Source of the DNA: Balanoglossus misakiensis
Lineage: Eukaryota; Animalia; Hemichordata
DNA: 64,000 bases
Direction: 5' to 3'
Assembly: GCA_040954595.2 (NCBI GenBank)
Contig: CM082587.2
Span: 837,622 to 901,621 of the forward strand
A model generated the notes under the pieces. That model was not told the origin of the DNA, did no database searches, and saw only the letters and a list, made by a program, of their open reading frames with translations. Below, one piece after another: positions 1-59,600 of the stretch. A program made the position numbers and the translations under genes. Each line of letters begins with the position of its first letter. Position 1 is the stretch's first letter.

Positions 1-1
1 C

Positions 2-955
2 ACAGAACTTGTCATTGGTATGGTAGGAATAATCGGAAATTTTCTCGTGATTTTGGTAGTTTGCATTGCGTCATCGATGAGAACGACAACTAATTTCTTG
101 TTAGTCAATCTTGCTGCAGCAGATCTCCTGACATCTGTCCTGTGCATTCTGATCAAGTACATGACTCATGCCTTCAATTTCGCAGTACCAGCAGGACTAG
201 CAGGAGAATTCTATTGCCGATTCTACCATGGATCTTTCATCTTCTGGGTTGGCATCAGAGAATCAACATTTAGTTTAGTTTTGGTAACCTTAGAACGATA
301 TCTCGCCATCGTTCACCCATTGCTTTATCCCAAGTATTTTACAACTCGCAATGCTGTCATTGCGGTGGTTGTTTCCTGGATTGTTTCATTTGTGATCGAA
401 TTCATCATTACATTTTTCAAGCATAGTGCTAATGGAACATGTGTATTAGTCTATCCTACAAAGGAGGTTGCAATGACCTTTGGTTTGTTTTATTTCATTT
501 GTTGCTACTTTATCCCAACAATTTTAATGATATGGGCGTACATCAGAATGTTATGCAGTCTTCGTATTAACAGAGATATGGTTGGTGGTTGTGATGACAG
601 GAATGAAACTCTTCTAAGAGCAAGAAATCGGTTGATAAAAGTTCTGATTATAGTATTTATGGCGTATTTTATTTGTTGGACGCCAATAATGGTCATATTT
701 CTTTACCTTAATCTTGGCGGACAGGGGACAGTGTTTGCGAGTTACACACAGGGTCTCATTCTGTTGGCATTTACAAATTCTGTTCTCAACCCGTTTATTT
801 ATGCGTTCAAGTACAAACAATTCCAAAGAGCCTTCTTGAATAACCTTTGTCCATGTTTAGTACGAACCATGCAAGTCGGTCCTGATAATAACACAATCAC
901 AATAAATTCCGAGCAAGTAGAAATCGCGGAAAATCTATCCAACCAGCACGGTTGA
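2..955 (+). CDS. Class A (rhodopsin-like) GPCR, paralog 1; 5' end truncated by the window; galanin/allatostatin-receptor-like orphan
   Basis: The frame is open from position 2 (TELVIGMVGIIGN), aligning with paralog 2 (SELGIGMIGTVGN), so the true start lies upstream of the window. Motifs: TM1 GN, TM2 NLAAAD, TM3 LERY, TM6 CWTP, TM7 NPFIY. Stop TGA at 953-955. No introns in the visible coding part. Confidence 0.92.
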   Translation, partial: TELVIGMVGIIGNFLVILVVCIASSMRTTTNFLLVNLAAADLLTSVLCILIKYMTHAFNFAVPAGLAGEFYCRFYHGSFIFWVGIRESTFSLVLVTLERYLAIVHPLLYPKYFTTRNAVIAVVVSWIVSFVIEFIITFFKHSANGTCVLVYPTKEVAMTFGLFYFICCYFIPTILMIWAYIRMLCSLRINRDMVGGCDDRNETLLRARNRLIKVLIIVFMAYFICWTPIMVIFLYLNLGGQGTVFASYTQGLILLAFTNSVLNPFIYAFKYKQFQRAFLNNLCPCLVRTMQVGPDNNTITINSEQVEIAENLSNQHG

Positions 956-2638
956 CAGATGTACAACAGATCATTTTCCAACTTCCAAAAGACTCTGCAA
1001 GATCTCATGTGGCTTGGCAGTTTTTATGAGTGGACTCTCATGTCATGCAACACTAGTTTCAAAAAAGGTTGACTTGTATTATATGGCTAGCCACCTGTTT
1101 CTATGGTAATTGACTAAAAGTCTCCTGAGATCTCGCAAGAAGCAGACAATGATCTATTATTAAAGGGCACATGTGCTTGAGTCATCCATCAAATTTCTAT
1201 ATGCTTTTGCCTCGGATCTGAGAAGCCTATCAAAGTGTGTGGTTAGGGGTAGGGTTGTGTTTAATTAGTTTTATTTTCCAGTTTGGAGGATGTTCTCGAG
1301 TTCTAGATGGGCAAGCAGCAGGAACTGAGGCAAAGTAAGCGTTCCACCAGAGTAGATCTGAGTGTAGAATCGTTACCACCTCGAGATAAATAAAAATACT
1401 TGAAATACACATGCTATTCTGAAGAGACATGTAGTAAAATTTAAGCGACTGTAAAGAATCGTCTTTGGAGTCTCTACTATCTACTGCTGGGGTTTTCAAA
1501 CAGAAAGTTAGCTGTAAAATTGTTAGTACTGACCAAAAATTAATGTGTCCATGTATGGTTTGTAAATTGTGCCTTGACAACACGCCATTAGGCGCTGATG
1601 TGTAATTAATGTCATTATTCTTCTGCTTTTCATGTATTGTAATTTCTAGTTTTTGAAATTTTTGTAAGAAAAACATGTATACACAAGGTCATGTGATGTA
1701 ATATAGCAAGAAAAGTTTAAAGAATTATTTTAAGCTTTACAGTTTGTTGTACAGTTTAATTCTCCAAATCTCGTACTTGTCTGCTTCTGTTTTTTGCCAT
1801 TGTATCATTCCCACTATGTCATTAAAAGCAAGCAGTCAAAAAAGTGAACATCTTCAAACGTGTTCCTATTTGACCTATGAACTTTGGTTGGTAGGGTCGC
1901 AAATATTGATGGCATGTAAATTATTAAGTGGTTCTCCAATTCGGACAAGAGAACTTACCCCCCCCCCCCAACCCATCACTTGAAAGGCATGTGGGTTAAA
2001 AAATAGGCATATTTTAACGAAACACACAGAAAAAAAGAGAAACAAAACCTAAGGTGTTGCGCTGACCTGATCTCTCAGATCCCGTGAGGAGTACGGTGCC
2101 CAGAGTGCATACACCTGTAAGTTTTGTGGCCTCTATTTGAATTTACAAGAACCATTTTTCCATTCATAAATTGTCATGAACCCCCCCCCCCCCCGAAACA
2201 TTTTGCCAACTTTCCCTTAGGCTCATCGAAACAAGTTTTCAAAGCCTAGTCAGAAAATAACAGTATAAAATAGTCTCTCCGCTCAAACACGGAATCAACC
2301 CCCCTCCCCCCGAAACATTTTTGCCAACTTCCCCCCTGTGCTCGTCGAAACAACTGGCGTTTTCAAGACCTTGTCAGAAATGACAGTAAAAGTACCGCCT
2401 AGCTGTCAGCTCAAACCCGGAATCTCCCCCCTCTCCCCGAAACATTTATCTCGGAACCGGAATAAATTTACTGATGAAAACTGCTTCACTTCCATGGTCC
2501 CGTGATAAATTCGTATCCCCTATACTCAGCACGCGTAGCAAGAGCCATACTGAAAAATTACCTGACAAGATTTAGATACAATGTATTTTCTTTGTACAAA
2601 CACCTGACTGTAGGCGCAGGGTCATGATCGGAGGGTGG

Positions 2639-2724
2639 TAGCTCTGCGTGGCAGGGCTGTGTTATTACGGCGAGCCCTCCACCCAGGGCTCGCCGTAACA
2701 ACACAGCCCTGCCACGCAGAGCTA
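2639..2724. repeat. Near-perfect palindrome (40-bp arms, 6-nt loop), copy 1
   Basis: TAGCTCTGCGTGGCAGGGCTGTGTTATTACGGCGAGCCCT-ccaccc-AGGGCTCGCCGTAACAACACAGCCCTGCCACGCAGAGCTA, one mismatch, TA at both ends. Confidence 0.9.
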
Positions 2725-3687
2725 GGACGGTGGCTGCTCAAATGAACACTATACAAATCTCAAATACACAGCAAAATAGATGAGACACAAAACCTAAGGT
2801 GTTGCGCTGACCTGATTTCTCAGATCCCGCGAGGAGTACGGTGCCCAGAGTGCATACACCTGTAAGTTTTGTGGCCTCTTTTTGAATTTACAAGAACCAT
2901 TTTTCCATTCAAAAATTGTCATGACAACCCCCCCCCCCCCCCCCCCCGAAACATTTTGCCAACTTTCCCTTAGGCTCATCAAAACAAGTTTTCAAAGCCT
3001 GGTCAGAGAATAACAGTACAATTAGTGTCTGTCCACTCGAACCTGTAGAATCACCCCCTCCCCCCGATGTTCACATAAATGTTTGAAACTACAGATCTCA
3101 AATAAACAGTAAAATGAATGAGAAACAAAACCTAAAGGTGTTGCGCTGACCTGATCTCTCAGATCCCGCGAGGAGTACGGTGCCCAGAGTGCATACACCT
3201 GTAAGTTTTGTGGCCTCTATTTGAATTTACAAGAACCATTTTTCCATTCATAAATTGTCATGAACCCCCCCCCCCCCGAAACATTTTGCCAACTTCCCCC
3301 CGTTTTCAAAGCTTAGTCAGAAATAACAGTAAAAATAACGTCTCTCCGCTCAAACACGGAATAAACCCCCCTCCCGCCAAAACATTTTTGCCAACTTACC
3401 CCCCCCCCCTGTGCTCGTCGAAACAAGTGGCGTTTTCAAGACCTTGTCAGAAATGACAGTAAAAGTATCGCCTGTCAGCTCAAACCCGGAATCTACCACC
3501 TCCCCCCCGAAACATTCAGCTCAAACCCGGAATAAATGTACTGATGAAAACTGCTTCCCTTCCTTCGTCCCGTGATAACACGCGTAGGAGTAACTATACT
3601 GAAAAATTACCTGACAAGATTTAGATACAATGCATTTTCTTTGTACAAACACCTGACTGCAGGCGCAGGGTCATGATCGGACGGTGG

Positions 3688-3772
3688 TAGCTCTGCGTGG
3701 CAGGGCTGTGTTGTTACGGCGAGCCCTCCTCCTAGGGCTCGCGTAACAACACAGCCCTGCCACGCAGAGCTA
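3688..3772. repeat. Near-perfect palindrome, copy 2
   Basis: Same arms as 2639-2724, with a 1-nt deletion in the right arm and a different loop (cctcct). Confidence 0.9.
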
Positions 3773-5158
3773 GGACGGTGGCTGCTCAAAATCTCAAATA
3801 CACAGCAAAATAGATGAGACACAAAACCTAAGGTGTTGCGCTGACCTGATTTCTCAGATCCCGTGAGGAGTACGGTGCCCAGAGTGCATACACCTGTAAG
3901 TTTTGTGGCCTCTATTTGCAACCAATTTTACAAGACGGTCACCAAAAACGTCACTCATCAACAAAACCTCAAAATTTGTAGCGAAATGAACGGGCGGTCC
4001 GGAACAGGCCTTCTCATGTACATTACACTGTGTTGGTTTCTCCTTGGCCGGACGAAACACCCGAAAGCAAGTGAATTTTACGAAACCCCGGCCACTTCCG
4101 ACCCGCTAAACCAAGGTTACCATAACTTAGATATCACGAGTAGGTGGACAATCTGGCAAAGTTACACAGCGCTGATTTTGGAGGTCCTTCGAACGCAGCC
4201 ATGAAAATTCTCCTGGAAAACACGCGTGGTTGCATGTTAATTACTTGACCCACAACTCGCTTCTGATTGGCTGATTGGTGTTCGACAGGCTACGATATCA
4301 CCCGCCAAGGGCGTGATTGAAAATTAGCATCCACGTGTCAAATGAAAGCGCAGCGCCAGCCAGCGGTGGGAATGGAGCAGGGGAGCGTTTGCCGCAGCCG
4401 TCCCAGCTACGGTCACCATAGCCATCTAAGAGTTTGACCAACGCTTCCAGAACGATAATATTTTCGATTTAGAGTAGAATCCCACCGAAATGCTTGAAGC
4501 AACTGAAACCAAACCCGTGGTTTGCGTAATTTATCAACTCTCACAACATACACAATTAAAATTTAACAAAGCGAGATCTGTAACTTTACACTAGGTCAGT
4601 GGAAAACAAAACTATTTCTAGCAACATTTTAATATCTACAACGTAATGATGTAATGTGTTGCCCGGGGTTGGAATGGAGACAAGTTCTTTATACATCTTT
4701 GTAAAATTAAATGTGTGTCACTGATGACATTTTCTGTTTGTTCTATCACATAAATTAGCTACATATCAATATAAAACTGTGTAGGCCTAATCCGTTCGCA
4801 AACAGGGTTGTATAGGTACAACTGTCCTGGTTGTTGGAAAGCAAGATAGGTCCTACATGTAGTTACATCCCGCAACTGAATCAAAGAAATATCTACCTTG
4901 AACCTTTTGACGTCTCAAGAGAGATTCGCTGTGCACGTTGGTCCATAAGCAACAAAATCTGCGCTAAGCCTAAACAGGTAAGATTAGCGAACGTTGGTTC
5001 TGTGTATCAATCAAATGCAATTTCTTGCTCTACTCCAAACAGCATACAGGATCGTAACCATGCAATGATATAAAAAAAATCCTTCATGACTCTAAATTAA
5101 CATAAGATAATATGTTTCCATTGATTTCAGTTGGAATCCCGTTTTATCCACGACGATA

Positions 5159-6163
5159 ATGAACAACTCCACTGAAACAGATTGTACCAGCCTATCAGAC
5201 AGAATACCACCATACATCTACAACAGCGAACTTGGCATCGGGATGATTGGAACAGTCGGCAATTTCCTTGTAATTTTGGTGATCGGGATGACGCCAAACA
5301 TGAGAACAACAACAAATTTCCTCATAGTTAATCTTGCAGTGGCAGATTTACTTACATCCATCATGTGTGTTCTCATGAAGTATTTGACCCATGCTCTCAA
5401 TTTTACGGTACCTGCAGGGTTAGCCGGAGAAATTTACTGTCGCATGTACTATGCCGCTTTTCCCTTCTGGGTGGGCATCAGAGAATCGACATTCGCTTTA
5501 ATTCTGGTGACTTTAGAGAGATACGTGGCCATTGTTCATCCATTGCTTTATAACCAGTATTGTACAAATCGCAATATTTCGATTTCAGTTGCTGTTACTT
5601 GGCTCTTTGCATTTATTATCGAATTCATCATTACATTTTTTCAACCCAGTGCAAATGGTAGATGTGTCTACGTCTATCCTAGTAAGCTGGTTGCCATGGC
5701 TTTTGGTTTGTTTTACTTCATTTGTTGCTACTTTATCCCAACAATTTTAATGATATGGGCGTACATCAGAATGTTACGCAGTCTTGGTATTACAGGAGAT
5801 ATGGTTGGTGGTTGTGATGACAGGAATGGAACTCTTCTGAGAGTTAGAAACCGGTTAATAAAAGTCTTATTCGTGGTGTTCATGGCGTTTTTTATATGTT
5901 GGACACCTCTCACACTCGCCTTTCTGTATCTTAATCTCGGAGGTCCTGGACAAGTGTTTGCTAGTTATACACAAGGGTTGATCTTGCTAGCATTTGCCAA
6001 TTCTCTTGTTAATCCATTCATTTATGCGTTCAAGTACAAGGCATTCCGCAGGGCATTCTTGAATAATCTCTGTAGGTGTTTCGTTAGAGATTCACAAGTA
6101 CGCCCAGATAATATCAACACCACAGCAGCTACAACAAGTGTACATTTGCATCAACATGATTGA
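5159..6163 (+). CDS. Class A (rhodopsin-like) GPCR, paralog 2, 334 aa, single coding exon
   Basis: Complete ORF with a short N-terminus carrying an N-glycosylation sequon (MNNST) and motifs GN, NLAVAD, LERY, CWTP, NPFIY. A splice-acceptor-like tttccattgatttcag ends at 5130, suggesting a 5'UTR intron. Clearly paralogous to 2-955. Confidence 0.95.
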   Translation: MNNSTETDCTSLSDRIPPYIYNSELGIGMIGTVGNFLVILVIGMTPNMRTTTNFLIVNLAVADLLTSIMCVLMKYLTHALNFTVPAGLAGEIYCRMYYAAFPFWVGIRESTFALILVTLERYVAIVHPLLYNQYCTNRNISISVAVTWLFAFIIEFIITFFQPSANGRCVYVYPSKLVAMAFGLFYFICCYFIPTILMIWAYIRMLRSLGITGDMVGGCDDRNGTLLRVRNRLIKVLFVVFMAFFICWTPLTLAFLYLNLGGPGQVFASYTQGLILLAFANSLVNPFIYAFKYKAFRRAFLNNLCRCFVRDSQVRPDNINTTAATTSVHLHQHD

Positions 6164-42739: not shown

Positions 42740-44664
42740 TCCGGAGCAGAAAAACTAGCTTGCAACCGTAGATTTCATGAGTTAAACTTCCCGAAGGTAT
42801 AATCCTGATTAAAGTATGTCAATTTGATGAAAAATCCCGGCAAAGATGGACTTTCGATGGCCGACACCACACTCGTCCACACACTCCTACTTGCAAATTT
42901 CAGTCTTTTTGTTGTATGAAACTTTGGTCGTGTGGCCCAGAACAAAGATCGACAGGCCCTCTTTGTATCCCTCCGCCGAGAAGTTTTGGTCAAGAATTTC
43001 CACAAAAAATCGATCAATGTATTGTCTCGACTCTTTTCACAGACAGACCGGAACTTAATACTTTAAGAGGGAAACTAGAAGTGCGTTCGGCAAATATACG
43101 TTTGATATATTAAAGTTTGGACTCGCATTGGAAGGACTACTTGCTGGTCAATTAGTTAGCTGGATAAAGCGCAGAAAATCGGAACTTTTCACTCGACTGG
43201 AGGTAATTTGCATTCGCCATCAATCACTACACTTTTCAAAGCCCGCCCACAGTCACCAATCACACAAGCTTTTACTTAGCTTAGTGCAACAAGCGTCCAA
43301 TCAGACGAAGCTTCATAAACCTTGTGTTGATTTGAAAGACTAACAACTCAAGTCCCATAGATCGCCCAGCCAGAAGGCAGTAACACGTGGAGAATGCATT
43401 TCAGGCCTACTATCACGGAAAAGTGCTTGGAAAGTCAGTCACGGTCGTCAGACAAAACGCACGAGTCTGAAAATTGCGGGAAAACCGCAGCTGCGCGGGA
43501 CTTTGCCGAGCAGTCGCGCGAAGCTTTTCTTTGCTCCATCGTATTTTCCCACGCTTAAAAGCTGACAACGCCAACACGATTCCTCCCGGACCATCGCGTC
43601 CGGGATAACTTTTTATGGAACTTCATCGTTCCGCTTCAGGAAAAAAAAAACTCAAAACAGAAGCAACTATATAAATGATACTTTTTTTTAATTATTTATT
43701 TATCATTTTTGTCCTTGTTTGTGAGATTGTACAATAGGTAAACTTTCAAAGTCAGCAATATTTCATGAAAACATTTTGTTATTGGCCTTGCGAGGGAAAC
43801 AAACACCTCCCCACGCAAATTAATTGTTATAACACCATACATGACATCTCGTGACAAATCGGCCCAAAATGTCACAGGTGGTTCTGAGATATAATAGTTA
43901 TGGTAACTAATGTACCTAGATTGCGCAAAAAGAAAAATAATTATAAGAAAGCACGCCAAATCCCAACGCCCGCAAAAGACACTAGCATGATCACACAATT
44001 TATTAACAAACTGAAACAATTGTTTGTAAATTTCTTGCCCGCCACTGAATTATTACTCTCTCAGGCCTAAACCCCTTTATAATTATATGGGTTACAAATT
44101 CGGGTATGTAGGTCGGTGATTTCTTTTTATTTTGTAAAGTTTTTGAACTTTCTGTTGTGTTTTGAAAGTGTCCAAACTAAGATTGTGAAACAACTCTCAC
44201 TCTCTAGATCTTGCAGTTTTATTTTTAATGCCAACTTTCGCGTAAATTATGAGCTAAGCTACTCCATAAAACCAATTTTCGCAACAACAACAAAAAATGC
44301 ACTGTATATCCGATTCACTTTTCTTAGTCTTAGCCAGTTATTGCCATTCCCGATATAGTATTTCAGGATGAGGATGGGGGTGGGGATGGGCAACTCCTCT
44401 TTCCGTACAAAAGTGCGTCTTTTTCAACTCTTTCCAAAATACGCGAACGTCTTGAAAATATTTGACGTTTTTTATCATGAAGTAGAGTTACAATACTAGT
44501 ACTTTTGATAGCGATACGTGTCAGACGTGAATATTTTGCGTCCCCATCCCGCGGGTCCCCACCTCACGCGTTTTACTTGCGCGTTTTTAAAACCGGAAGT
44601 AGCAAGTTAAGCATTAAAGTATTAACGCAGTATATACAATTTGCATAATTTATTCGTTTTTAAC
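42740..44664. promoter_or_regulatory. Divergent Notch/IMP3 5' region with promoters
   Basis: The two ATGs are 1.9 kb apart in opposite orientation. The region is locally CpG-enriched, with CCAATC boxes (~43256, ~43277), CACGTG (43384), a CSL consensus CGTGGGAA on the minus strand (43546-43553) and ETS/GABP-type CCGGAAGT (44593-44600) just upstream of IMP3. Confidence 0.6.
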
Positions 44665-47600
44665 ATGGTGCGGAAGTTGAAATTTCACGAGCAGAAGCTG
44701 CTGAAGAAAGTCGATTTTATATCATGGGAGGTCGACAACAACTTACACGAAGTACGGGTTATGAGAAAGTACCGTATACAGAAAAGGGAGGACTATACCA
44801 AGTGAGTAGCGATCATCTAATAAGACCACGTGCGTGTTGATTGTATACAGCTAGCTAGGGGTTCGTGTACAGTATAAGCATATGGGGGCTGCCATTTTGT
44901 ATCCACGCATTCTGGCGTTTTGTTGAACTCATTCGTTTTTATCGCGATGCTTGAAATTATTTATTAATTTGAGAGAGAAAAAACAGAAACCCCAATAAAA
45001 TGTTACAATAGGTGAACAATCCAGCACCCAGTACTGTCACTTAAATGTGTGACTTCGTTTCGTTTTTTTCTATATCGCATGCCAACCGTTGAGGGCGTCA
45101 TATTATGTTATTTTTAGGAAAACATAATGTTTTGGGTATTATATATTGTTTTCCACATGACTACATATTTTTTTATTTTATAGATATAATAAATTAAGTA
45201 GGAACATTCGGGAACTTCTTGAAAAGATCAAAAAGCTGGATGTAAAAGATCCTGCAAGAGCTGAGTACACATCACAACTCCTGGAAAAATTGTAAGTGTT
45301 GAGTGGAGAGTATATTAAATTTGTATGTATGTGGAAAGTCCAGTAAGAGAAATGCCAACCAATAGAGGGCATCCATCTTGAGTAGGTTTTTGCCTTGTGT
45401 TAGGGGGTCAATATCATATTTAAATATTTGCATTGTGGGTAAAAGTGTCGACAATACTGAGACAAACTGTAGTAAGAATTTTAGAGAGATGATATACATT
45501 ACCATCTTCATAAATGGGTGAACTTTTGTCCTGGCCTTTTGTTCGTATGAAATTATTACAAACAAACAACATTTACTTAATTGTATTACTTTAATTTCTT
45601 TGTTATAAAATGAGTTATATTGGATGAGTTCATAACTCTTCCAAAGTGTAGACTCATGCCAACAAAATGCCAGGATGTAAAGGTCATATAGGGGTCATGA
45701 AGGTGGCCTGCTGTATGACTTCTATCTGGAATTACTTTGTTCCTGAATTGTGAAACAGAATAAAGGTCATGTCCAGGTCAACCTGACTGAACCAGATATC
45801 CCACTTTGCAGGAAATAGTCCTTTCTCTGGCCTTCACCTTAAGCAGGGGTCATTTCCCCTAAGTAGGTCAGCCCATGGTCAGCCCTGGTATACCTATACC
45901 GGTGGTTTTGTTGGGTCCCATTGGTATGTACCATGGGACCTTATGGGATCGGTTATGTATGTATGTATGGATGGATGGATGGATGGATGGATAGATGTAT
46001 GTCTGTATGTCCGTCCACATCAAAAACTTGAAAACCGCTGCGTGTATCACCTTGATATTTGGTGTGCTGATGCAGGCTGGGCTGTAGATGGGAGTTTGTT
46101 CAAATGAAGTTGTCATTGCCAAAAATATGCAAATTAGTTGGAAAAATTGGATTTTGGTCAAAACTCAGTAACTCAAGAACTACTGGTCAGATTGCTTTGC
46201 AAAGTGGTGTGTATTTACTTTATTGAGTTGTTTTAATTAGGCAGAAACTCCCTCCTGTTATTCACATAAACACAGCAAATTCCTGAATGATTACATAACT
46301 GGCTAAGTTTTAATGAGGCCAGCTGTTCTATTTAGTGTATGTACAGTACATATGAAATTGGCAGCTTATGGGTCAGTCAGTGTTTGCCCATTGAGCAAAG
46401 TTGAACTTCATTGGAGAAAAGAAGAACCACTCCCGTCGGTCTTAATTTGCATTTTAACACTTTATTTTGCATTTCAATACTTGATTTAAATATGAGAAAA
46501 GCCTAACAGTTTTGTCTCACTGTAGTTAAAGTTTTGGACCTAGAAATATAAATAGTTTGTGTCCATGAGTTTGTATTGGGGATGTGTTAGCACTCTGGGC
46601 ACCGTACTCCTCACGGGATCTGTTAGCGCAGGTCAGTGCAACACACCCCAAGCTTTTTGTATCGCCTTCTTTTGCTGTGATTTGAGAGCTATACAGTGTT
46701 CATTTTGTAGACACAGGGATGTTTATGTTTGTGAGAGGCTCGCGCGAGTCTGCCATTGTATTGTTGTGTGCAAAAGAGGTCACGGGAGTTTGGGGATGTG
46801 TTAGCGCTCTGTTCACCGTACTCCTCACGGGATCTGTTAACGCAGGTCAGCGCAACACACCCCAAGCTTTTGTATCGCCTTTTGCTGTGATTTTAGAGGT
46901 ATACAGTTCATCTTTGCATTCATCGTCCCATCAGATCTCTGTGTCGACAGTCCGATGTTAGATTGTTGTTGGGTCCCATTGGTATGCACCATGGGACCTT
47001 ATGGGATCGTTGCACCTGTATGGGATGGATGTACGTCTGTATGTCTGATTACATAACTGGCTAAGTTTTAAAGAGGCCAGCTGTTCTATTTAGTGTATGT
47101 ACAGTACATATGCCATTGGCAGCTTATGGGTCAGTCAGTGTTTGCCCATTGATCTCTCGCTATGTGTGTGTGCATGTGTCTGTCTGTATATGGCCATGTA
47201 CTCCGGTGTAGACTTTTTCTTGTGTAATCACTCAATGGGACCACCGTGTCCTTGACGCGATTTTTATAAAAGGGCGGTACCCAGGTTAATGTTACCAGGG
47301 TTCCCCTTGGTATATCAATGCGGCCAAGAGTGTTTAACTGGGTTCCCTTCAATCTTCCCCAACTTCAGCAGAGACACTGTATACCTATGCCATGCCCATG
47401 TGTATTGTTCACTGCAATTCACCACATCTGATGACCCCTGGTTATTTCACCAGTCACCACTCATGTAATATCTGAACTCAAACTCAGTGGTTACACAGCT
47501 AAATACTAGAAACCTGTGTAACAGACAAAACACCATGTATTAGCCAATAGAAATTTCTCATTTGGTGTCTGAATAATGGCTGTAACATAGCTCATAGCGC

Positions 47601-50600
47601 GGTAAATGCACCTACTTTATATGTTACACAGCTGTGAAGGACCATGACTGCTGTGGGGCTAAAATTGACAAGGCTGGTACGGGGCGTGTGAGAAGGGTTG
47701 TAACAGAAGTGAAGGAATAGAGCCATGGGGCAGATAATCCCTGGGGCCAGTGCCGTGGTGTGGGAATCCTGTGATAGACCTAAAAATAAAGCATCTGTAC
47801 CAGTACATTGCAGGTTTCCCACACTCTTGTTTAATACAGGGCTTTTAGAAATGGCCTGTTGCAGAGTGTGAGCTATATGAAAGTTGCAGGTTTTTTTTCT
47901 TTCTGTTGTACAAGGTTGCTGGTACAAACTGTTCAGTGGTTTTCCATGTAAAAAATAAAACACTGTGACCCCTGCACAAAGATGTACCGGTAGTTAGGTA
48001 AAGATAATAAAAGTAGACATTTATACAATAAGTATCATATTATTTCTGAAAGTAAAAATAAAATAAAGGAATGTGAGAAAACTGTATGTGTATCTACAAT
48101 ACTGAAATGATTTGCCTCTTAATTAAAATAAACTTTTAATGATTATTCTTTTCTGTCTGGTTGTGTTGCGATAAAAAGAAACAAAGGAATTGTGCATGTC
48201 CACATTTTCTGTTGAAAATTCCAGACCTGTCCAAATGTTTTTGTTTTGTTTTGACATATGAGTGTTGAGAGTTAATTATGTACATAAATGTCTTTGTTTT
48301 ATTATCCACCAATGATTATGTATTATACTTGAAATATTCAATACTATTGAGTGTACAGTTAAATATGTATTTCTACATACCTGGCTGTGACGTACTATTG
48401 TGATGTTTGAACATGTCTTCTTGGCCTGGTTGTGAATTCAATTGTTGATGTACAAAATGAATAGCTTTTATTGATATATCATTCACTAAACAAACATTAA
48501 AATTAAGACAAAGAAATATGATTATCTGATAAATGGTTGCTTAATACCATACATCTGTGTATAATGATTGCGATGATGATCTAATCCTGATGCGGTTATT
48601 TTGTGACACCATGATAATTTCCTCCAATTGTTTGCATTATTTCCTATAGATCTGTATCTTTTTTTTACTGGTAACTGCTGTTGATATATATTAAGTATTA
48701 TTAGAAAAATAAGAGTCGAGTTTAATGAAACTTTCCATCATGCACCAAGACGCCAGACGGAAGGTTCAATGACTTGCTTAAAACATGTGATAACTTTGTC
48801 GTCTGCAGCCAGCACAGCCCGATGGTTCCAATTCAACAAGATGGTTCTGGTTGAAGCACTTGTATTGTGAAGTGGGAGCTGTGTAGGTGTTTATTGATGG
48901 AGGAAGCCAGATGCCAGATTTCAATGACTTTTAAATTTGATGTCACACACACAGAGTTTATTGTGTCATTTTTCTCACAGAGATTGTAGTGACATCACCA
49001 TGGCAACACCAATTGCATGGGCCAGAGCCTGTGAGTTATATCCCATAATTCCACCGGCAAAACCCTGAACAGTCCAGTTGACTTCTTTCACCCTTTGCCT
49101 CCAGTTTATTCGAACAGCAAAACAACCACAAACTTAAAGACACTGAGAATATTTTGACGTGCATTTGTGAGTAAATAATGTTTTCATCTTGAATAGAGCA
49201 GGTGCCGAGAACTGACGGAACCGTGCAGCGCACACGTGTAATAGTCCAGACTTACATACAACCCCCTCCAATGCATGCATGCATTCCTGCCAGTTTGCTA
49301 TGTGATTGTACATGCCATTGTTTGTACTTTCAATAGACTTGTATTCTTGCAAATGTAATGGACAGTATTTGAATACTAGACACATGACCCCCCTCCCCAA
49401 TCGTTTTTTTGGTTTGTTGTAGTCTTTAACCATCGCTGCTGTTGCCTCGTCAATATCGTGGATTTTTAAGTGGTATATCTATGTGTTTTTCTCTCCTATC
49501 CTTTGTAATCCACTTGGAATAAATTTTTGGCCCAGCGAGCGGTCGGTGTCGGGTTCCCATAAGGAGAAGACAACCGGTCTTTCACACTGTACCCTCTGGG
49601 TAGAATTTTATTATGGTTGCACCCAAGTCAAGGTCTCTAGTCATAGCGCTGGTTCTAGGAATGATGGTTCTGGCTTCAATTTTGAAAGTATGCAGACAGG
49701 GCGCTTGTACGTTTGCTAATGGTTTGCTGAAACCATCTTGCCACTAGAATCTGCCAGACTTAGGTATTAAACTCTATGTTGTTGTTGAAACACACTCTTA
49801 GGTCAATGAACTGCTAGATACATTGTACTAAACCATAAGAACACAGTGTGTGTGATTGTGTGCATGTGTGTGTGTGTACATGTGTGTGTGTGTATAGATC
49901 TGCAAGCATTGATACAGCATATACATCTATGCATTGCAATTACTCATGCGTATGATTAATACAAGGCACCGTCTGACTTGTTATTAAAAACTTAATAATG
50001 AATATGACCTAGAGTACACCAGTTAATGATATATGGTTACCAGTCCATACTGCCTTGCTTCTGCAGATCTCCAGTAGTTCCACACATTTGATTTTTTTGT
50101 GTTGAGTATTGTGAGCGCTTCAGCTGATGGCACCATGAAACCCCAATATGTTCAGGGCAAGGTTTGAAAGGCTAAGGGGAAAATGTAAGAGTCGGTGACA
50201 ATGATCATGAAAGAATTCAGTTCCCGCCAAAACATCACCATGCAAGGACACATCACAGACTTAATAATAACCCTGTCTGGGTTTTCTGTTTGAGAACTCC
50301 CTACTGTCTTTTTCAGGTGAGTTTGGCCTTCACTAGCATTCCAGTGTGTATATGAAATAGAAAGTTATTCAAAGCAGAGACTCCTACAGTCTCTCATCCC
50401 ACGGTGCTCATATCCAAGTGGGCTTGTCCTCTCAAGGTTATTCTTTTGTTTCCAGTTCTGTTAAAATCCCGATTTTAGATTCAAATTACCTGTGTGTATA
50501 TGTGTGTGTGTCTCACTTGCTGAAAAGGTGTACTGGGTCATGAAGTCTTTAGGCGTTTTTGTCTTTTGATGTTAGACCGTGGGGATGCTGCCGGGCGTGT

Positions 50601-53600
50601 GGACAGCCATTGCATAATTTCCCTAGCAACAGAGGTTGTTGTCGAGGTGTCTTGGTGAGTGGCATACCACTGGCTGTTTGTAAAGGCGGGCGATGAAAGC
50701 CGACTTCACTCCATGCTGAAATGTTGTGATCAACAGTGAACATGTAAGAAATTGAAGAGTTCTTCTGAAAAAGCCACTCATCAACAACATTTTATTGTTG
50801 CCTATTTCTGGGATACATTAATCTGTCATTTGATGAATAAATGTTTGTATTATGATGTTATTTATGGAACATGTTGAATCATATGGTTTGTATTAGCAGT
50901 CCCTGAGGTTCTAGCTTAGGCCCGGCATTGTCATTTTCAAATTGGTGCCAAGTGTTTATCACAGGCAATGACCCTTCACTGAATTGCATTTGATCTCTGA
51001 CTATAAACATTATCTATTGGATTTCACTTTAAGCTCGATACAGCTTTCCTGGTCTAGAATTTCTCTCTTACTGCTTCTGTACACCTAGTTTTTAAACTTC
51101 AAGTATCAGAAAGCTCAACGAGAGGGTCTTATCTGACTGTCAGTGTTAAATATGCGGGAGGATCACTTCAAGTCAACTTCAGTTTATTTCCAAGTGTAGT
51201 TTAGAATCTATCCTTTTCTTGATCTTGCCAAAACGAGCCAATAAAAGGAAGGATAGATTCTGTTCAAGTACCAGTCCACGCTCTTCATATTTGGCGTGTC
51301 TCCAAAAAGCCATAAAGGAAACACTGCATCTGATGGGTCAATAGTTGACTCTGACACACTTGAGTACAGATGTATATGTCTATATTTATCAGGGTACACA
51401 AATGAGTTGTTCTTTAGACCCACGAGATTTTGGCTGAAGTGTCTGACCCGCACCCATGCGTGCTTCATCTGTCTTCAAAACGTGTACATGTGTAAAGGGT
51501 ACAAAGTGTGTGTTTATCAATGTTTGTCTGTTTGTTTGTGTACATGTCCCTTGTAGTTGCAAGGTGCTGATAATGGTTGATTGGGTGTTTGGCTGTATGT
51601 GTCTATGTATATGTAGCATATCTGCCATATAAACGCACAAAATATCATTTGACATGAGTGCAGTTTCACCATCCACTGATGTCATACTGAAATTTAATAA
51701 CACCAGTCTTGAATAGTTAATGATGACATCTAGTTCTTCCTGTGATGCATGATTGTGGCTTGTTTGCTGTAATCCGACCATTTGTGCAATCGTAATTCTT
51801 TCCAGTTCTGCCCCAGATGAATTATCAATTTATTATTATTGAAAAACGATATTCAGTTTTACGGCACATCTCGTTTGTCAGTGATATGACTGACTTACTG
51901 GGTGATGATAGTCAAATGTCGAACGTGATCAACCTCTACTTGTATTTCATAGATTACATATTTGTCAACCTTAGTGGCACCACACAGACATCTCCAAACA
52001 TTACAATCAAAATCTTGTTACTAGCTCCACCAGAAGATGTCTGCCAGGCTAACACTCTGATAACAAGTTTATATTTAAAGCAACAAAAGTATAAAATCCA
52101 CACAAAGTTGCAGACTTCTGTCTGAATTTTAGTAAACTTAATCAGTTTTAAAGTACTTCTGCAACATGATTTTACTTTGTGTATATCTAAACACTTTGAA
52201 GGGTTACGTATAAGCGACTGTATTGACAGTATTTTTGAAGGCAAAGGTTCATGCACGATCTAGTTTTGTTGTGGTGTTACCAGAGTGCTGTCAAGCTGAC
52301 GAAGAACTGTATGGAAGGGTTGCCTCTCCCATCCTTTTATCACAAACACCATGTACTGTTGTGCTCAGACAATAACCTTGAAACAATTGCTGTTCTCTGT
52401 CCATTGAGAAAGCTCACAATTTCCAAATAAATCACCCCATAAAGAATAAGTCGGGTCTTTAAAATCATTGAATCTGTCCACTGGGCTGTTGAGATTGCCC
52501 TAGGCTAGACGTTGTTTTCTCACTGTGGCCCCCTGATAGCCTGCATCTATGAAATACGAGGGCTCCCTTCAAGACATGTGACATCATGGCACTAACATAA
52601 AGCATGGATTGTTTGTTTGTAGACTGGGTGCACAGAATACAAGCACAGAACCTGCAGTCCACACAATGTAGAAGATAAAATCTTGACAAATGGCCGTATA
52701 CTGGAAATGATATCAATATCTGTTTTATTTTATGCATGAGATATTCCTGACTCCTGGATAAGGGAGAAGCAACACGAAATAAAATCCCTTGCACTGTAAG
52801 GACACGACATTGAGGCCAAATATGTCCTGCTCTCAAACTAACCAATTCTTCCTGTAAGTCCTTATACCCTTACAGATAATATGGATAATTTTCTTGCATC
52901 AACTTTGAATTTGTTGAGTCAGTGGCATACACACTGACCAGTACTCTTGCCATTGGACCATGCATGGTGCAGGATTTTTTTTTTCAACACACACCTCCAT
53001 CCAGGCAAGTAATTGTGTCATGCCTAGTGATACTATGTCTGGCTTGTATCATAGGATAATGTGATATCATAAATCATTGTCCTAATGGAAAAAGAATTAT
53101 GTCCATTGTGACCAGAGAACATTAAGATGACCCAGTTTGAAGTCTTAATAAATAACTTGTTCAGTGCAAAATGAATATTTGCTTCTTATGTAATTGGTGA
53201 TGTACTCTCTTACAAACTATGACTGTTCTGCAAATGAATGCCATAGCTACATTTCTGTATGTAGAAAACTTTCAGTTGTATTGAGTGTACGTTATGAGTC
53301 CTGCACTCAGTCACTTCTGATCATTATGGTTTGTCCTGGTTTGTTTTTTATTACGGTCACTTTGTTTTGCTTGAGTGACCATTGAATGTGAACTCTGACC
53401 TTAGTCCAGGGTGATCTCCAGTCCCTGAACACTTCCATATTTGGGTCATCTCCCATAAGTTTGTTTTTCTTTGAAGAATCTAAATCAAATGAAATAAGTA
53501 GTCTTATTTCTATTATATAAATTATGTTTCTGTGCCACTATAGTTTATTATATGCTTGATGAATTGGGTTTATTTTGGGAGTTTTATTGAATCTGGCTAA

Positions 53601-56600
53601 TACAAAGGCCTAAATACAAATCTACCCCAACAAAGACAATATCCATATACGATAAGCTTTGTCAACAAGTCTGAGTACCAGTTATAAGAAAGTAGTGGGT
53701 ATCCTGAAAGATATAATAATCATGTTTATACAGAACTTCATATAGTTCCTTTGTTTCTAGAAAGGCTGATTGAATCGCTCGGTATGGATTTAAAGAAAGA
53801 AAGATGAGATGTCAACGTGTTGCTTTTTTTGTACTGCCTACGGCGTTTGGCAGCATAGCCTCAGCATTCATCAACTCAAACAGGTGCTGCCAGTGAGAGA
53901 GGGCCCTTTTTTGTGCAAAAATGTGTTTGAAACAATTTTGTAGTGGGTGTGTACAATGAATTACGGCACAGCTGGGACGGCAATTCAGATGGCCGGCCCA
54001 CACCACCAAGAAGGTCACCACCTTTGCAAGACAAACTTTTCCAAATCCTCATGATTATATACAAACGCGAGATTTTTAAGCTTTGCAACCATACTGTGGA
54101 CTTACATCATGCTTTTCTCGGTGGAACAGTGATAACTGCTTGTAAGATTTGTTTTCTGGGCGATCAAGACAGGAGGGTGGGAAAAAAGGGGGGAATGAGA
54201 TGATTTGTCATGCCCATGGGTTGTAAAAGAATTATGAGCTCTATCAGGACAAATAGTCATGAGCAGGTTGATTGTATGAGGCACAACACAGCTTAGTGCA
54301 GGAACCTGCTTCCTGATATCTATCAGTATCACATCTCCATTGACATCATCAACCAAATGTGGACAGTTGTAGGATTTTACATACAGGACTTGAATGAAAT
54401 TCTAGTTTCACATCAGAGGAAAAGTCCATTCATACAAATGTGTTCACACAAAAATTGTTAAGAGTCTTCAAGACAGTTGACTGGTGCAGTGCTTTGTTTT
54501 GTTTTGTTTTTCACATTTTCTGTTGTGTAGCAACAACCGTAGCAGCTGAAACACAAGTAGTTTTGAAGACGTTTGTGCTAAAAACTATCAAAGAAATCTT
54601 TGATATGAAAACTCCAGAAATAACGCCTGGGCCTTTCAAATCCAAGAATACCAGTGGCAGCTGGCACTGGTGAAGTAATTCCTTTCTTGACCTATTGACC
54701 TTTCACCCCTGAGGTCAAAGGATAGTGCTAAACATGGCTTTTGATACAGAAAACCGTCTGGTGTTGGGCTTGAAGAGAATTCTGCAGCCTCAAATTTCAA
54801 CGCTTTTAGTTGGTTGTTATTAGATTTAACAAGCTTGGTTCAGAGAAGCCTGTGTGACAGATGACCGCACAATATGGTGCCTGACAGGTGCTAGGGGGAT
54901 AGCCAATGCTCATATATTCAATGAACTGTGTCCAGACCCTGGCTGCACAGCTTAAAATTTCCCACGTTCTGTATACATAGGGATTTAAGCATGTGACTTG
55001 GTCTAGTCATCTGTATATGTGTACTGGTCAAACAAGCATGCCTGCAACTGATCAAATAAATCTGCCTTGCTAGCAAATTAGCCAGTCAATACCCAAAAAG
55101 AAACTGTAGGTTTTTGGTAAGCCCGCCATCGTAAATCTCTCCAGCTTGCATGTCTCTTTAAACCGACCCCATGTAACCTTAGGCATGAATATGGTCAGGT
55201 TGCTTACTATTGGTTCAGAGTTGGCAACTCTTTGAATATGGTAATTTGAGTTTGGTCTGCAGCGGATACATATCATGTGTAGCTCTGGAGTCACTGTGAA
55301 CTAGATAAAAACTTGTTCAAGATTGTATAATATAATTCCTTCTTCTGTTGGTTGTTTACAGACCTTCACACCTTTTCATTCCTCTCAACTCAACTAATGT
55401 TGCAGCCCCCAATACAATGTATATCGCAGACAAGTGCCCTAGTTACAAGTTCAGCGTACAGTGGACAGCCAAAGGGCAAAGGAGTAAGGACCAAAGATTC
55501 ATTTGTGCCCAGCAAGTCATTCACTTTAGGTAGCCATATCGCAGATTGGAATTAAAAAAACTTAACAGTCGGTGGTTAATGTTTCAGCAATAAGAAAATC
55601 ACAGAAAAATAAGCATGTTAATCTGGATGATACCATGAAAAAAAAGTTAATTTATAATAAAAAAAGATAATAACTACAGCTTATCTGTGTGTGTGGCTGG
55701 TGCCCTGCGATGAAACCAACTGATAAGCTGCCCACCCAATGAGAGATACTAGTATGATAGGGTCTGTCTCAAGATAAATATATTCCGTGATATTATCGCT
55801 AATGCGGAAACATTGCAAAAGGGTTGAAAATCATAGAAAATGACTTAATAAACAGTGGTCTATTTATCTTAAATGTTCATATCCAAGTATATTACCTGTT
55901 GTAGTAATATTTGTGAAGATATGAGCTATCATGTCAGTGATATCACATTTCATATTTTTTGCAAAGAGTGCCATAGCTTACAGAATGTATTTAACAGCTG
56001 TTGTCATGAATTAGAAAGACTGATTGTCTTGTTGGAGCCATCCTTGTGTCTGGACAGGCCACCCAGGAGTATACACGATGGCTTCTGTGTCATTTGGAGA
56101 ACTCTAGTCTGGATAATTCATAACTACTGTCACCCAAGTCTGCATACGTTTTGCTTTTTGCACATTTAGATTTGATCAACTCTACTCAACGATTTTGCTG
56201 CAAAATGCATTCCCAGAACTCCACAGAGTATGTCAAAATAGTTCCCCCTTCCTTGGTTCTTTAATGTCTGTAATTATTTAGAAACAAATAGTCAAGTAAC
56301 CCTCTATTCATCAAAGTGCTCATTAAACCTATCCCAAGGCAAGGTAAGATCAAAACAGGGCATGTTTAAGGTCGTTCTTCTTGGCTGATGTTTGGAAACT
56401 AGATTCTCCAAAGTTACCTCCCACATTGTTCATACCCTCTGGTTGATTGAGTTGAATTGCATTGCATTGTGGCACAGAATCAAGACCGATTGATTTCATT
56501 CCATCAACTTCAGTTGACCAATCAGCACCAATGTCTTACAAATCGTGCTACTACCCTGTACCCATCAATTGTTCAGGTCTATCTCAATCACAGTTTTGCA

Positions 56601-59600
56601 CCCAAAGACTCTTTCTCTGCCCCTCAAAAATGAAGTAGGCCAGTCCCCACCATAAGCTCAGCAACTATCACCCTGAGGGTCTCTCCCTTCCAATTAATAG
56701 ATTAGGCCAAAGGCTAACCATCTTGCAATCCCCCACCCATTACAGATTTTGGCCTTCTTGCAATCCAATCCTTGCAATCTCCTCCCATTAATGGATTTGG
56801 CCAATCACAATCTCCAGCCTATCACCTTTCAACCCCTCCTTCCCCATTAATGGTATTGGCCAATCACAATAAACATCATCATCATTATTGCTGGGTGTTT
56901 ATGAGAAGTAATTAGAAAGCTATGATGACAGGAAGTGTATATCATCCAAAGTGACCCTCACCCATGAATCACTCAATAATGCTCTTAAATTAAATCTTGG
57001 ATTTTCAGTGGTGGTATAGAATTGACAAAACACTTCATCATGCACTGACACCACTGTAGGAAAATGCATGTTTCATCTGAAAACATCAGATTTGTTGGAT
57101 TTCTGGAACTTGGTGATTTACTGGTATGCTGTGGTTATCAAACGGATGGTGGGGCATATGGCATTCTATGAATGTCATAAGTTATTTCAAATATAAAATT
57201 GTGCAGGAGGGGGGTACCCCAATTCAGTGGGGCATCCCTCATGAAAGTGCCTATAGTCAATTACTGGTAAATGAGTATTCCGGGGTTTCAACAGGGAACC
57301 AGTTATACAACGAACAAGATTTATATTAAAGTTAATTTGGTGTTTTATCTGGCTATTTCAACAGCTGTTAAAACACTCCATGGTATGTGATCTAAACCTT
57401 GAGTGTAAATAACATTAAACACATTTAGTGTTATCAGATACGTTAGTCACCAAGTCATTAGGGAGAACAACATGGAAAGTTAGTAGTGTTCACAAACACT
57501 CTAAAGACCTGGTCTCGGCTAAAAATCTTGGGGTGTGAACATCAGTCACAGAACTTTTAATCTTTCCTAGTTAGATTGGAAAGAAGTAAAAGGCTAATTC
57601 AGTTCGCAGTACTTCCCCGTCTTGACTGTCGATTTGCATGGTGACTGATTCTCTTGTGCTCGACACCTTGGTTCACCTGATGCCGATTTAGAGTTTGCCA
57701 AGTCAGAAATTCAATAGCAGTGGCGTGCCAGACACAAGGGACAATAACCTGACATGTTCAGATGAGAACATGTGAACTCTGAGTGCACAGTAAAGGCTTT
57801 GAAGTTCTGTGGGGTTTACTGTTGCAGGTCTGTGAATTAACTGCCATGGCTAAGTCAGTGTAAAGAGACAATTACAGCCAGGTCTGTGAAAAGATTATTG
57901 CCTTTACAATTACAGTTTGAATGATGATACTCAGCACCATTTGTTTCTCCAAAAGTTTCAATCGCAGTGTTTGACAGAACGTAAAGGTGTGATACCTTCA
58001 AACAATTAACCCAAGTTGGCGATTTATTGACCGAGGAAAGATTTGTTACTAAATGCATGATTTGCGTTCATTGGTGTGTGGAGATCAGTGCTGACTGTTG
58101 CCATGCCAGGAATAATTCCCTTACTGAAAAATCCATGCTTGATAATTATTGCATGTAAAGTGTTTGCATGGTCAAACATTTTTCAAGTGACCCAACGTGT
58201 CACCATTGTCGGTTGGCAAAGCGATTGAAGGGAATCTGCCCCCACATACCTGAGTATTCAAACCACATCATATCTGATTTATAATCTCCCTCCTCCTACC
58301 AACATTCCATGGCTCAGAAAGTCTCACTGTCGCTAGTAATCTTTGACCTCTCTGTACACGTCTAGCGTTCATTCTTTAAAAAAACCTCCAATGAAATTGT
58401 GATGAAGTTTATCTGAGTACTGTTTGAATATTTTCTTTGTCTTTATCATTTCACAGTTTTTGTCCCTTGTTCTGTAAATAATTCTTAACTTTTCTCAAGT
58501 ACGTAAGACTATACTTTCTTTGAGAAGTAATCAGGCAGAAAACTGGTATAATGATGACACTCTTGGCTGCGTGTTTTGCAAAGCTTCTGTTTGTTTAGAA
58601 AGCCCTGGGGCTTGGGGATGACTGCTCTTCCATAGCTTTCCATAGTTGACTGCGCTTTCCCAATGGAATGATAACTCATCCTCCATGCAGAGGCTAAGTC
58701 TTGGACAACAAAGATGTCTAGGAATTAGTCTCTTTCCTCAGCCATGATGTGATGGAGTCTGTGCGTGCTGATCACAGGCTTTCACCGCTCTCGGAAAACC
58801 ACTGGAGAAACTCTTGGAAAATCCAGGAATTTTAAACCACTCCAAAAAGTCCTAAAAAATAAACTCTCTACCGGAAAGCCCTAACTAACTGATGCGGCTA
58901 CCCAAAGCCGAAACTAACTGTTGATTAAACCATGAAAAACGACAAAAATTGTATTACGCAGTCACATCTTGAAGATACCCTTTTGAGGGTAAATATTGTT
59001 GAAAAACCATGGAGGCACTCCACCACAGTACTGGAATCGTGTTGTGGGTTTTAAGCATGTGAACCCACAATGATTTCTGCTTGGTTGAATTGATTTGTCT
59101 GTAGTGTCACTTTGTGTACATGTTGTTGAATTGTAATAGGCCACTGCAGATGTTACAACATGTGTACACCATAGGCAACATCTTATGACCCCATCACACC
59201 CACCCATTGATAACATAGCACGCCGCAGTCACGACAGTTGAATACAATAAGACTTAGACCATGGTCACTGCACCAAAGCTCAACCAGGAGATGATTTTCT
59301 GCACATTGCGAGACTCAACTCTCGCTGTATATTTCTCTTATCACTATGGTAGCATACCTAGTTAACTTTGTTGTCAACATACAATGAAAACTTTGGGAAC
59401 TAATTCTATTGCTGTAGGAATGCCCATCTCTGACCAACACCAGCTGTCGATAATGCTGGATAATCAGGATTTAGGCACCAGACTTCCATCCTGTGTTGAG
59501 TGGTCCCGACAAGGAGCAGTCCTTGCAAGCAGTCCAGGTTAACCCCTTCGGGATCTGTATTACCATTCATTAATTGGCATGGTGTAAACTTATATCAAGA

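What the first reader, a model, noticed from the sequence alone, without database searches (positions are those of the whole stretch)
2053..3894. Tandemly repeated three-way-junction motif with GNRA loops and hammerhead-like topology (candidate new ribozyme or structured RNA)
Seen: four minus-strand copies (2053-2115, 2798-2860, 3137-3199, 3832-3894) read GGUGU-A-UGCACU-[CUGGGCA]-CCGU(ACUCCUC)RCGG-GAUCUGA(GARA)UCAGGUC-AGCGCA-ACACC. Variation among them preserves the fold: U-A versus U-G in the second stem, and GAGA versus GAAA, both GNRA tetraloops. The closing stem has one A-C mismatch on this strand. The order stem / 7-nt CUG...A strand / hairpin / hairpin ending GUC / closing stem is that of a type I hammerhead, but the core is CUGGGCA and GGGA rather than CUGANGA and GAAA. 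Established: tandem ribozyme-bearing repeats (non-LTR retrozymes, newt satellite 2, schistosome Sm-alpha) self-cleave into monomers. Inference: an undescribed self-processing RNA, or a structured ssDNA signal of a rolling-circle element. Catalysis cannot be claimed from sequence, and the core deviations would inactivate a canonical hammerhead.
Basis: partly seen in the sequence, partly recalled or inferred. Interest (0 to 1): 0.85.

Follow-up and report, generated by a model that had tools for sequence, protein, structure and literature searches.

The report
Conserved branched hairpin in mobile repeat
The four copies are the tip of a predicted 120-base branched hairpin whose 31-base core barely changes across a repeat family of likely hundreds to thousands of copies in this animal genome; it lacks the hammerhead catalytic letters and most likely serves as the docking signal that lets the repeat be copied, although a new self-cutting RNA is not excluded.

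Summary
The four copies are real, and two more sit in an IMP3 intron (46578-46885). The 63-nt motif alone folds no better than shuffles (z -1.3 to -1.9). It is the tip of a ~115-nt rod (z -4.1, -5.0). In contigs of one sample, summed depth on the 31-nt core is ~75,000, against ~20 for single-copy DNA and 30-1,000 for the flanks, so many subfamilies share it. It is not a hammerhead: G8 and GAAA are missing and Rfam gives no hit. The GNRA loop and U-G pair are local variants. Best reading (0.45): a protein-recognised folded signal at the 5' end of a non-autonomous mobile repeat. Rivals: a Pol III small-RNA gene family (0.2; one copy has octamer, PSE-like site and TATA, and all six are followed by a T-run), a new ribozyme (0.15), a passive palindrome (0.1). 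No homologue turned up in viral, metagenome or prokaryote scans, and this scan had not noted it on other DNA.

The parts
2053..2115 (-). Copy 1: three-way junction (tip of a longer rod, about 2033-2138)
2798..2860 (-). Copy 2: three-way junction
2821..2851 (-). 31-nt near-invariant core in copy 2 (last pairs of closing stem, 7-nt junction strand, 4-bp hairpin with 7-nt loop, 5' arm of second hairpin); same core at 2076-2106, 3160-3190, 3855-3885, 46592-46622, 46806-46836
   Evidence: depth plateau; mismatch scan; 30 of 31 identical between loci
3137..3199 (-). Copy 3: three-way junction
3805..3919 (-). Copy 4 with its full closing rod (junction at 3832-3894)
   Evidence: z -4.09
2140..3790 (.). 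Spacers built of ~130-bp C-rich sub-repeats; 2020-2884 duplicated as 3100-3918
3920..4560 (-). CpG-rich promoter-like segment upstream of copy 4 on the folding strand (CCAAT at 4266 and 4274, ETS-like site 4094, E-box 4332); short pieces of it follow the motif in contigs from other loci
   Evidence: CpG o/e 1.07 vs 0.50; joints
46445..46555 (+). Octamer (46445), PSE-like site (46517) and TATA (46547) at -133, -61 and -31 from the first G of copy 6
   Evidence: consensus from PMC5493778
46578..46658 (+). Copy 6: closing stem, junction and T5 run, about 80 nt; sense strand of IMP3 intron
46770..46885 (+). Copy 5 with full rod, rich in G-U pairs

Best explanation
The motif is the branched tip of a predicted ~115-nt hairpin at one end of a non-coding repeat family with likely hundreds to thousands of copies, and it most likely works as the folded signal that a trans-acting enzyme binds on the element's single-stranded intermediate. 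Inferred: that this strand is released single-stranded (as RNA about 60:40 over displaced ssDNA); that it folds; that a protein from an autonomous partner reads the junction strand and the 7-nt loop while the rod need only be paired; and that this selects for the core. Inferred from identities: the four-copy array grew by local duplication after a MITE had landed in one spacer.
For: Summed contig depth in X1 is 74,842-76,706 at 2823-2846, against 28-286 at 2745-2798 and 135-1,041 at 2865-2900; single-copy contigs show 18-27. At least four different flanks appear as loose ends beside the core. Between copies 4 and 6 the core is 30 of 31 identical while the lower 5' arm is 9 of 20; the downstream flank is 48 of 66 between copies 2 and 5. 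Arm swap on the folding strand: own pairs -28.0 (copy 4) and -36.2 (copy 5) kcal/mol against swapped pairs -23.5 and -20.2; on the other strand the copy-4 arm prefers the foreign partner. The two inner hairpins have pair probabilities of 0.86-1.0 on this strand in 5 of 6 copies (about 0.57 in copy 6); on the other strand they are mostly under 0.4, copy 5 being the exception. Of the listed contig pieces, 7 of 20 end at 2882-2888, the base of the rod, and an eighth begins there on the record's other strand. The two inner stems never covary, which suits sequence-reading by a protein better than a purely structural scaffold. No mobile-element protein domain was found in six frames of either locus.
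Against: No autonomous partner, target-site duplication or empty site was found, so mobility is inferred from copy number and dispersal. All depth data come from one sample, probably the window's own source, and summed contig depth is not a copy number. Only three independent lineages could be aligned, and covariation does not exceed shuffles (425 of 500 reach it). Spacers are G/T-rich on the folding strand, so mutational strand bias could produce part of the G-U excess. Copy 6 has a weak lower stem (z -1.3). Known HINE signals are terminal arms (PMC4067079 passages), whereas here the arms vary and the tip is fixed.
Confidence: 0.45

Rival explanations
1. A multicopy family of small Pol III RNA genes with an external (type 3, U6-like) promoter: a 70-80 nt RNA from the first G of the inner stem to the T-run, acting as a protein-binding RNA and spread as DNA together with its promoter. 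Most copies here would be promoter-less relics.
For: Copy 6 has octamer, PSE-like site (9 of 12 with one gap) and TATA at -133, -61 and -31. That combination occurs at one place only among 127,360 strand-positions of the window. The first T4 lies at +69 to +77 in 6 of 6 copies, and two further subfamilies show a T4 just behind the stem (loose ends). The flank upstream of copy 6 recurs in the low-depth run X3, so it is itself repeated. Spacing fits published type 3 promoters (PMC3958870 passages).
Against: Thresholds were set after seeing the site. The TATA aligns with the rod's 5' terminus in other copies, so it may be a mutated end. 5 of 6 copies lack it. In copies 1-5 the T-run is paired inside the longer rod. 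PSE scores of 9 occur at other offsets upstream of all six copies but copy 3, and the consensus used is human. One of the loose-end flanks shows no T4.
Confidence: 0.2
2. A self-cleaving ribozyme of an undescribed class that plays the hammerhead's part in a retrozyme-like repeat, cutting read-through transcripts into unit-length RNAs that are circularised and copied by a borrowed reverse transcriptase.
For: A multi-stem junction of 60-80 nt with fixed unpaired nucleotides, shared by many subfamilies with divergent flanks, in dimers and short arrays. This is the pattern of hammerheads in metazoan retrozymes (PMC7229834 passages). The 214- and 339-bp units are in the described size range. Strand-specific fold.
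Against: No known catalytic core. No covariation in the inner stems. Unit-length circles fold no better than shuffles (z -0.6 and -1.1). Two copies lie in sense orientation in an intron of the essential gene IMP3. In one published screen 10 of 10 non-hammerhead candidates chosen by similar criteria did not cleave (PMC10085705 section 17).
Confidence: 0.15
3. A passive palindrome: the remnant of an old inverted repeat in a repeat family, kept uniform by recent amplification and gene conversion, with no role for the fold.
For: The 63-nt unit folds no better than shuffles. Covariation is not above shuffles. Strand bias in composition can mimic G-U pairing. Four of the six copies are recent duplicates.
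Against: The core is fixed while the adjacent loop and lower stem have turned over. Own arms pair better than swapped arms on one strand. Depth falls 15- to 100-fold within a few bases of the core on both sides.
Confidence: 0.1

Closest known systems
Metazoan non-LTR retrozymes (Cervera and de la Pena 2020, PMC7229834, passages; bioRxiv 10.64898/2026.07.22.740005, part 1 of 5)
   Same: Non-coding dimers and short arrays; a conserved three-way junction shared by divergent families; two units of 214 and 339 bp.
   Different: No hammerhead core; units of 695 and 745 bp too; monomer circles not unusually folded; the junction caps a 40-bp rod.
Type I hammerhead ribozyme
   Same: Order closing stem / 7-nt strand beginning CUG and ending A / hairpin / hairpin / closing stem.
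   Different: CUGGGCA or CUGUUCA in place of CUGANGA; GAUC, fully paired, in place of GAAA; no unpaired cleavage nucleotide; no Rfam hit.
HINE / DINE-1 non-autonomous Helentrons (Thomas et al. 2014, PMC4067079, passages)
   Same: Hairpin at the 5' end, central ~130-bp repeats, no target-site duplication seen, T-runs upstream in two loose-end groups.
   Different: HINE hairpins are short and their terminal arms are the conserved part; here the hairpin is 115 nt and branched, the tip is conserved, and no matching 3' subterminal repeat was found.
Type 3 Pol III genes (U6, 7SK; PMC5493778 and PMC3958870, passages); Y RNA and stem-bulge RNA likeness recalled
   Same: Octamer, PSE-like site, TATA, G start, closing stem and oligo-T at copy 6.
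   Different: One copy of six; no Rfam match; hundreds or more copies with flanks conserved beyond the T-run.
SINE highly conserved domains (Luchetti and Mantovani 2016, PMC5804259, passages)
   Same: A conserved core shared by families with different flanks; the Inv domain is listed for hemichordates and forms hairpins.
   Different: No tRNA head or A/B box near any copy; no sequence match in the supplements searched.

Membership tests
Type I hammerhead ribozyme | CUGANGA strand between stems I and II | tested here: not met
   CUGGGCA in 5 and CUGUUCA in 1 of 6 copies; descriptor from PMC8557442; regex finds none in the motif on either strand
Type I hammerhead ribozyme | Unpaired GAAA between stems II and III | tested here: not met
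   GAUC, predicted paired at 0.92-1.0 in 5 of 6 copies
Type I hammerhead ribozyme | Match to an Rfam hammerhead or other ribozyme model | tested here: not met
   0 at gathering score; no ribozyme family among 15 and 2 weak hits at E<=10
Type I hammerhead ribozyme | Site-specific self-cleavage | not testable with these tools
   needs in vitro transcription
Non-LTR retrozyme | Tandem units of about 200-400 bp | tested here: inconclusive
   2 of 4 spacings fit (214, 339); 695 and 745 do not
Non-LTR retrozyme | Type I hammerhead in each unit | tested here: not met
Non-LTR retrozyme | Monomer-length linear and circular RNA | not testable with these tools
   no RNA run could be laid
HINE / Helentron | Matching subterminal inverted repeats at both ends | tested here: not met
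   no convincing inverted match between the ends of either locus; true 3' end undefined
HINE / Helentron | T-rich flanks and no target-site duplication | tested here: inconclusive
   T-runs abut the 5' boundary in 2 loose-end groups; no empty site seen
HINE / Helentron | Central tandem repeats | tested here: met
   ~130-bp sub-repeats in locus 1; absent in locus 2
Type 3 Pol III gene | PSE near -60, TATA near -30, distal octamer | tested here: inconclusive
   1 of 6 copies; unique in the window but thresholds set post hoc
Type 3 Pol III gene | Oligo-T terminator after the RNA | tested here: met
   first T4 at +69 to +77 in 6 of 6
Type 3 Pol III gene | Discrete transcript | not testable with these tools
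   no RNA run could be laid
tRNA-derived SINE | tRNA head with A and B boxes | tested here: not met
   ARAGORN 0 genes; recalled A/B-box patterns 0 hits in 5 regions, both strands

The most novel reading that the evidence does not exclude
An undescribed class of self-cleaving ribozyme, a three-way junction on a long rod with a fixed CUG-NN-CA strand and ACUCCUC loop, that has replaced the hammerhead in a retrozyme-like repeat family with thousands of copies in an acorn-worm-type genome.
Probability: 0.15. Interest if true: 0.9.

Novelty: new variant of a known kind. Interest (0 to 1): 0.52.

Why it matters
A 31-nt core held nearly constant across many subfamilies whose flanks, loop and lower stem have turned over is the mark of a working element, and it matches nothing in Rfam. 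If it is a protein-docking signal, it gives a handle for finding the autonomous partner of an abundant, unclassified repeat. If it is a Pol III gene, it is an unknown abundant small RNA in an invertebrate deuterostome. If it cleaves, it is a new ribozyme class, of which few are known. One in vitro transcription and one stranded small-RNA library would separate these readings.

Tried and rejected
No whole genome is held, so copies could not be collected. Sequencing runs: 3 DNA runs of one sample, no RNA holder listed. Exact core scans: 0 in viral contigs and 0 in metagenomes. Looser patterns gave 20 + 4 viral, 26 metagenome and 10 prokaryote loci. All 60 were searched with the covariance model: best 15 bits against 86-105 for the six copies. 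Of 41 pattern matches in 40 loci, one has all four pairs of the small hairpin, and that one lacks the second hairpin. All were rejected as chance. Model R1 had its structure off by one column, so searches are superseded by R2. The GNRA test was off by one base; the loops are read. Twister, twister-sister, pistol, HDV-like, Y RNA, vault RNA, tRNA and primer-binding-site likenesses were considered from recall; none has an Rfam hit. An LTR reading (TG...CA at 46769-46918) was rejected: those ends are the base of the rod, and no primer site or purine tract adjoins. A poly(A)-tailed retroposon on the other strand (two A-rich loose ends) is not excluded, but that strand does not keep the fold. The 40-bp hairpins in the spacers are a separate MITE. 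Four 15-mers of the core: 0 papers. Four 11-mers in the Naiad paper's supplement: 0 (the file holds Naiad consensus DNA with line breaks and may be cut). SINE supplements: 0. Searches for a hemichordate PSE found nothing. The paper on Penelope hammerhead variants is not held. Dfam and Repbase could not be searched, and bioRxiv supplements were not seen; either may hold this repeat.
Full report
Setting. The window is animal DNA. It holds two tandem rhodopsin-family GPCR genes (for the second; 77% identical to the first), EGF and ankyrin exons that I read as Notch (the name is my recognition), and IMP3. Earlier AI notes on this genome call it a likely acorn worm; I did not test this. No whole genome is held.

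Observation. The four copies are at the stated places and fold as stated on the minus strand, which I call M. Two more copies lie at 46578-46649 and 46770-46885, 214 bp apart, on the window's plus strand, which is the sense strand of an IMP3 intron (exons near 44685, 45185 and 63770-63970). A covariance model finds these six at 86-105 bits and nothing else above 14.2 in the window. The four-copy array holds an 87% identical duplication, so there are about three independent lineages: copies 1-4, copy 5 and copy 6.

The real unit is longer. The 63-nt motif has z of only -1.3 to -1.9. Its closing stem runs on for about 40 bp, giving a 115-nt rod with a branched tip: z -4.09 for copy 4 and -4.95 for copy 5 as RNA, -3.6 and -4.0 as DNA. 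The other strand also scores well as a rod (z -4.66 and -3.37) but mostly loses the junction. The lower 5' arm is only 9 of 20 identical between copies 4 and 6, against 30 of 31 for the core. On M, own arms pair better than swapped arms (-28.0 and -36.2 against -23.5 and -20.2 kcal/mol); on the other strand this does not hold for copy 4. Copy 6's lower stem is weak (z -1.3). Formal covariation on six rows is not above shuffles (425 of 500), and the spacers are G/T-rich on M, which can mimic G-U pairing.

A large family shares the core. Contigs of three runs of one sample were laid on 2745-2900 at 80% likeness. In X1, summed depth is 74,842-76,706 on 2823-2846, about 4,000 on 2799-2816, and 28-1,041 on the flanks; X2 shows the same shape. 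Contigs identical to the window have depth 18-27 in X1. The sum is not a copy number, because overlapping contigs add up; I infer several hundred to a few thousand copies. Five variable sites are listed at 3% or more, and only one lies in the 31-nt core (2830), where the U-A form holds 75,185 of 75,439. The first G of the GNRA loop is replaced in over 90% of depth in both deep runs. A change at 2806 that repairs the A-C mismatch holds 27% (X1) and 75% (X2). Loose ends show other loops, a fully Watson-Crick second hairpin and other lower stems, and several pieces stop at 2882-2888, the base of the rod. X1 is probably the window's own source and is not independent support.

Not a hammerhead. The core descriptor (CUGANGA, GAAA; PMC8557442 passage) is met by 0 of 6 copies. 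Rfam gives nothing at gathering score and no ribozyme at E<=10. Unit-length circles fold no better than shuffles.

Surroundings. Upstream of copy 4 on M lies a CpG-rich segment with two CCAAT boxes, an ETS-like site and an E-box. Of 11 joints listed, four link the motif end to pieces like 4080-4111 or 4271-4300, and one X2 depth value (86.5) carries motif, ETS piece and CCAAT piece in this order. Sides are only 21-42 nt, and the segment could also serve the GPCR gene. Upstream of copy 6 are an octamer, a PSE-like site and a TATA at -133, -61 and -31, the only such place in the window, and all six copies have their first T4 at +69 to +77 (consensus and spacing from PMC5493778 and PMC3958870, passages). 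The thresholds were post hoc, and the TATA aligns with the rod's 5' terminus in other copies. Echinoderm U6 elements diverge from human ones (bioRxiv 2023.01.09.523328, passages). No mobile-element protein domain was found in six frames of 1000-5100 or 43000-50000, nor any terminal repeat or target duplication.

Relatives elsewhere. None were found. Exact scans gave 0, and 60 of 60 loci from looser scans score at most 15 bits. These collections hold almost no animal genomes, so this says little about other invertebrates. Earlier findings of this scan show no look-alike.

Mechanism. I commit to a cis-acting folded signal (0.45). The M strand is released single-stranded, the rod forms, and a protein supplied by an autonomous element reads the fixed junction and loop. 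The steps from release onward are inferred. Fixed letters in the inner stems, without covariation, favour protein reading over a purely structural role. Promoter-like sequence upstream at both loci and G-U pairs tilt towards RNA; T-runs at the 5' boundary, central sub-repeats and neighbouring HINE-like elements tilt towards a rolling-circle DNA element (PMC4067079, passages). Rivals are a Pol III small-RNA family (0.2), a new ribozyme (0.15) and a passive palindrome (0.1). That newt satellite 2 uses an snRNA-type promoter is recalled; one search gave only a listing.

Literature seen. PMC7229834, PMC6765202, PMC8557442, PMC5804259, PMC5493778, PMC3958870, PMC4067079 and the sea-star preprint: passages. 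bioRxiv 10.64898/2026.07.22.740005: part 1 of 5. PMC10085705: abstract and section 17. PMC5786205: supplement search only. No paper in the library prints four 15-mers of the core, and searches listed nothing on such a motif. Dfam and Repbase were not available.

Verdict. The feature is real, larger and more widespread than reported, and apparently undescribed, but the hammerhead framing and the GNRA argument fail. I class it as a new variant of a known kind, interest 0.52, with a 15% chance of a new ribozyme class.

Noticed in passing
window 2639-2724 and 3688-3772: An 86-bp near-perfect hairpin flanked by a 9-bp direct repeat (3679-3687 / 3773-3781). Loose ends in run X3 show matching 9-bp flanks at what appear to be two other loci, and depth is in the thousands: a tiny MITE with Mutator-size target duplication, inserted before the array duplicated.
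   Followed up: partly
window 45905-46404 and 46965-47152: Two HINE-like elements (T-run, head palindrome, microsatellite, 3' subterminal repeat and small hairpin) flank copies 5 and 6; the second is cut at its 3' hairpin.
   Followed up: partly
window 44685-63970, plus strand: IMP3 gene, apparently with an intron of about 18.5 kb between the exon ending near 45292 and the exon at 63770; no exon in between was detected.
   Followed up: partly
window 4997-5045: A short segment of another high-copy repeat just upstream of the second GPCR (bin depth 4,119 in X1; up to 80 contigs share one loose end).
   Followed up: no
window 4242-4402: The CCAAT-box segment is itself repeated (bin depth 2,259 in X1) and is joined in other contigs to the motif and once to the MITE.
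   Followed up: partly
window 2471 and 3541, plus strand: A CUGAUGA heptamer in each long spacer; the regex found a GAAA about 55 nt behind the one at 3541 only, and Rfam gives no hit. Probably chance.
   Followed up: partly
window 1-957 and 5111-6163: Tandem intronless GPCR paralogues, 77% identical, on either side of the array.
   Followed up: no
window 1504-2072: An X2 contig with 8 differences and 20 gap letters runs into copy 1, so a second allele likely carries the array too.
   Followed up: no
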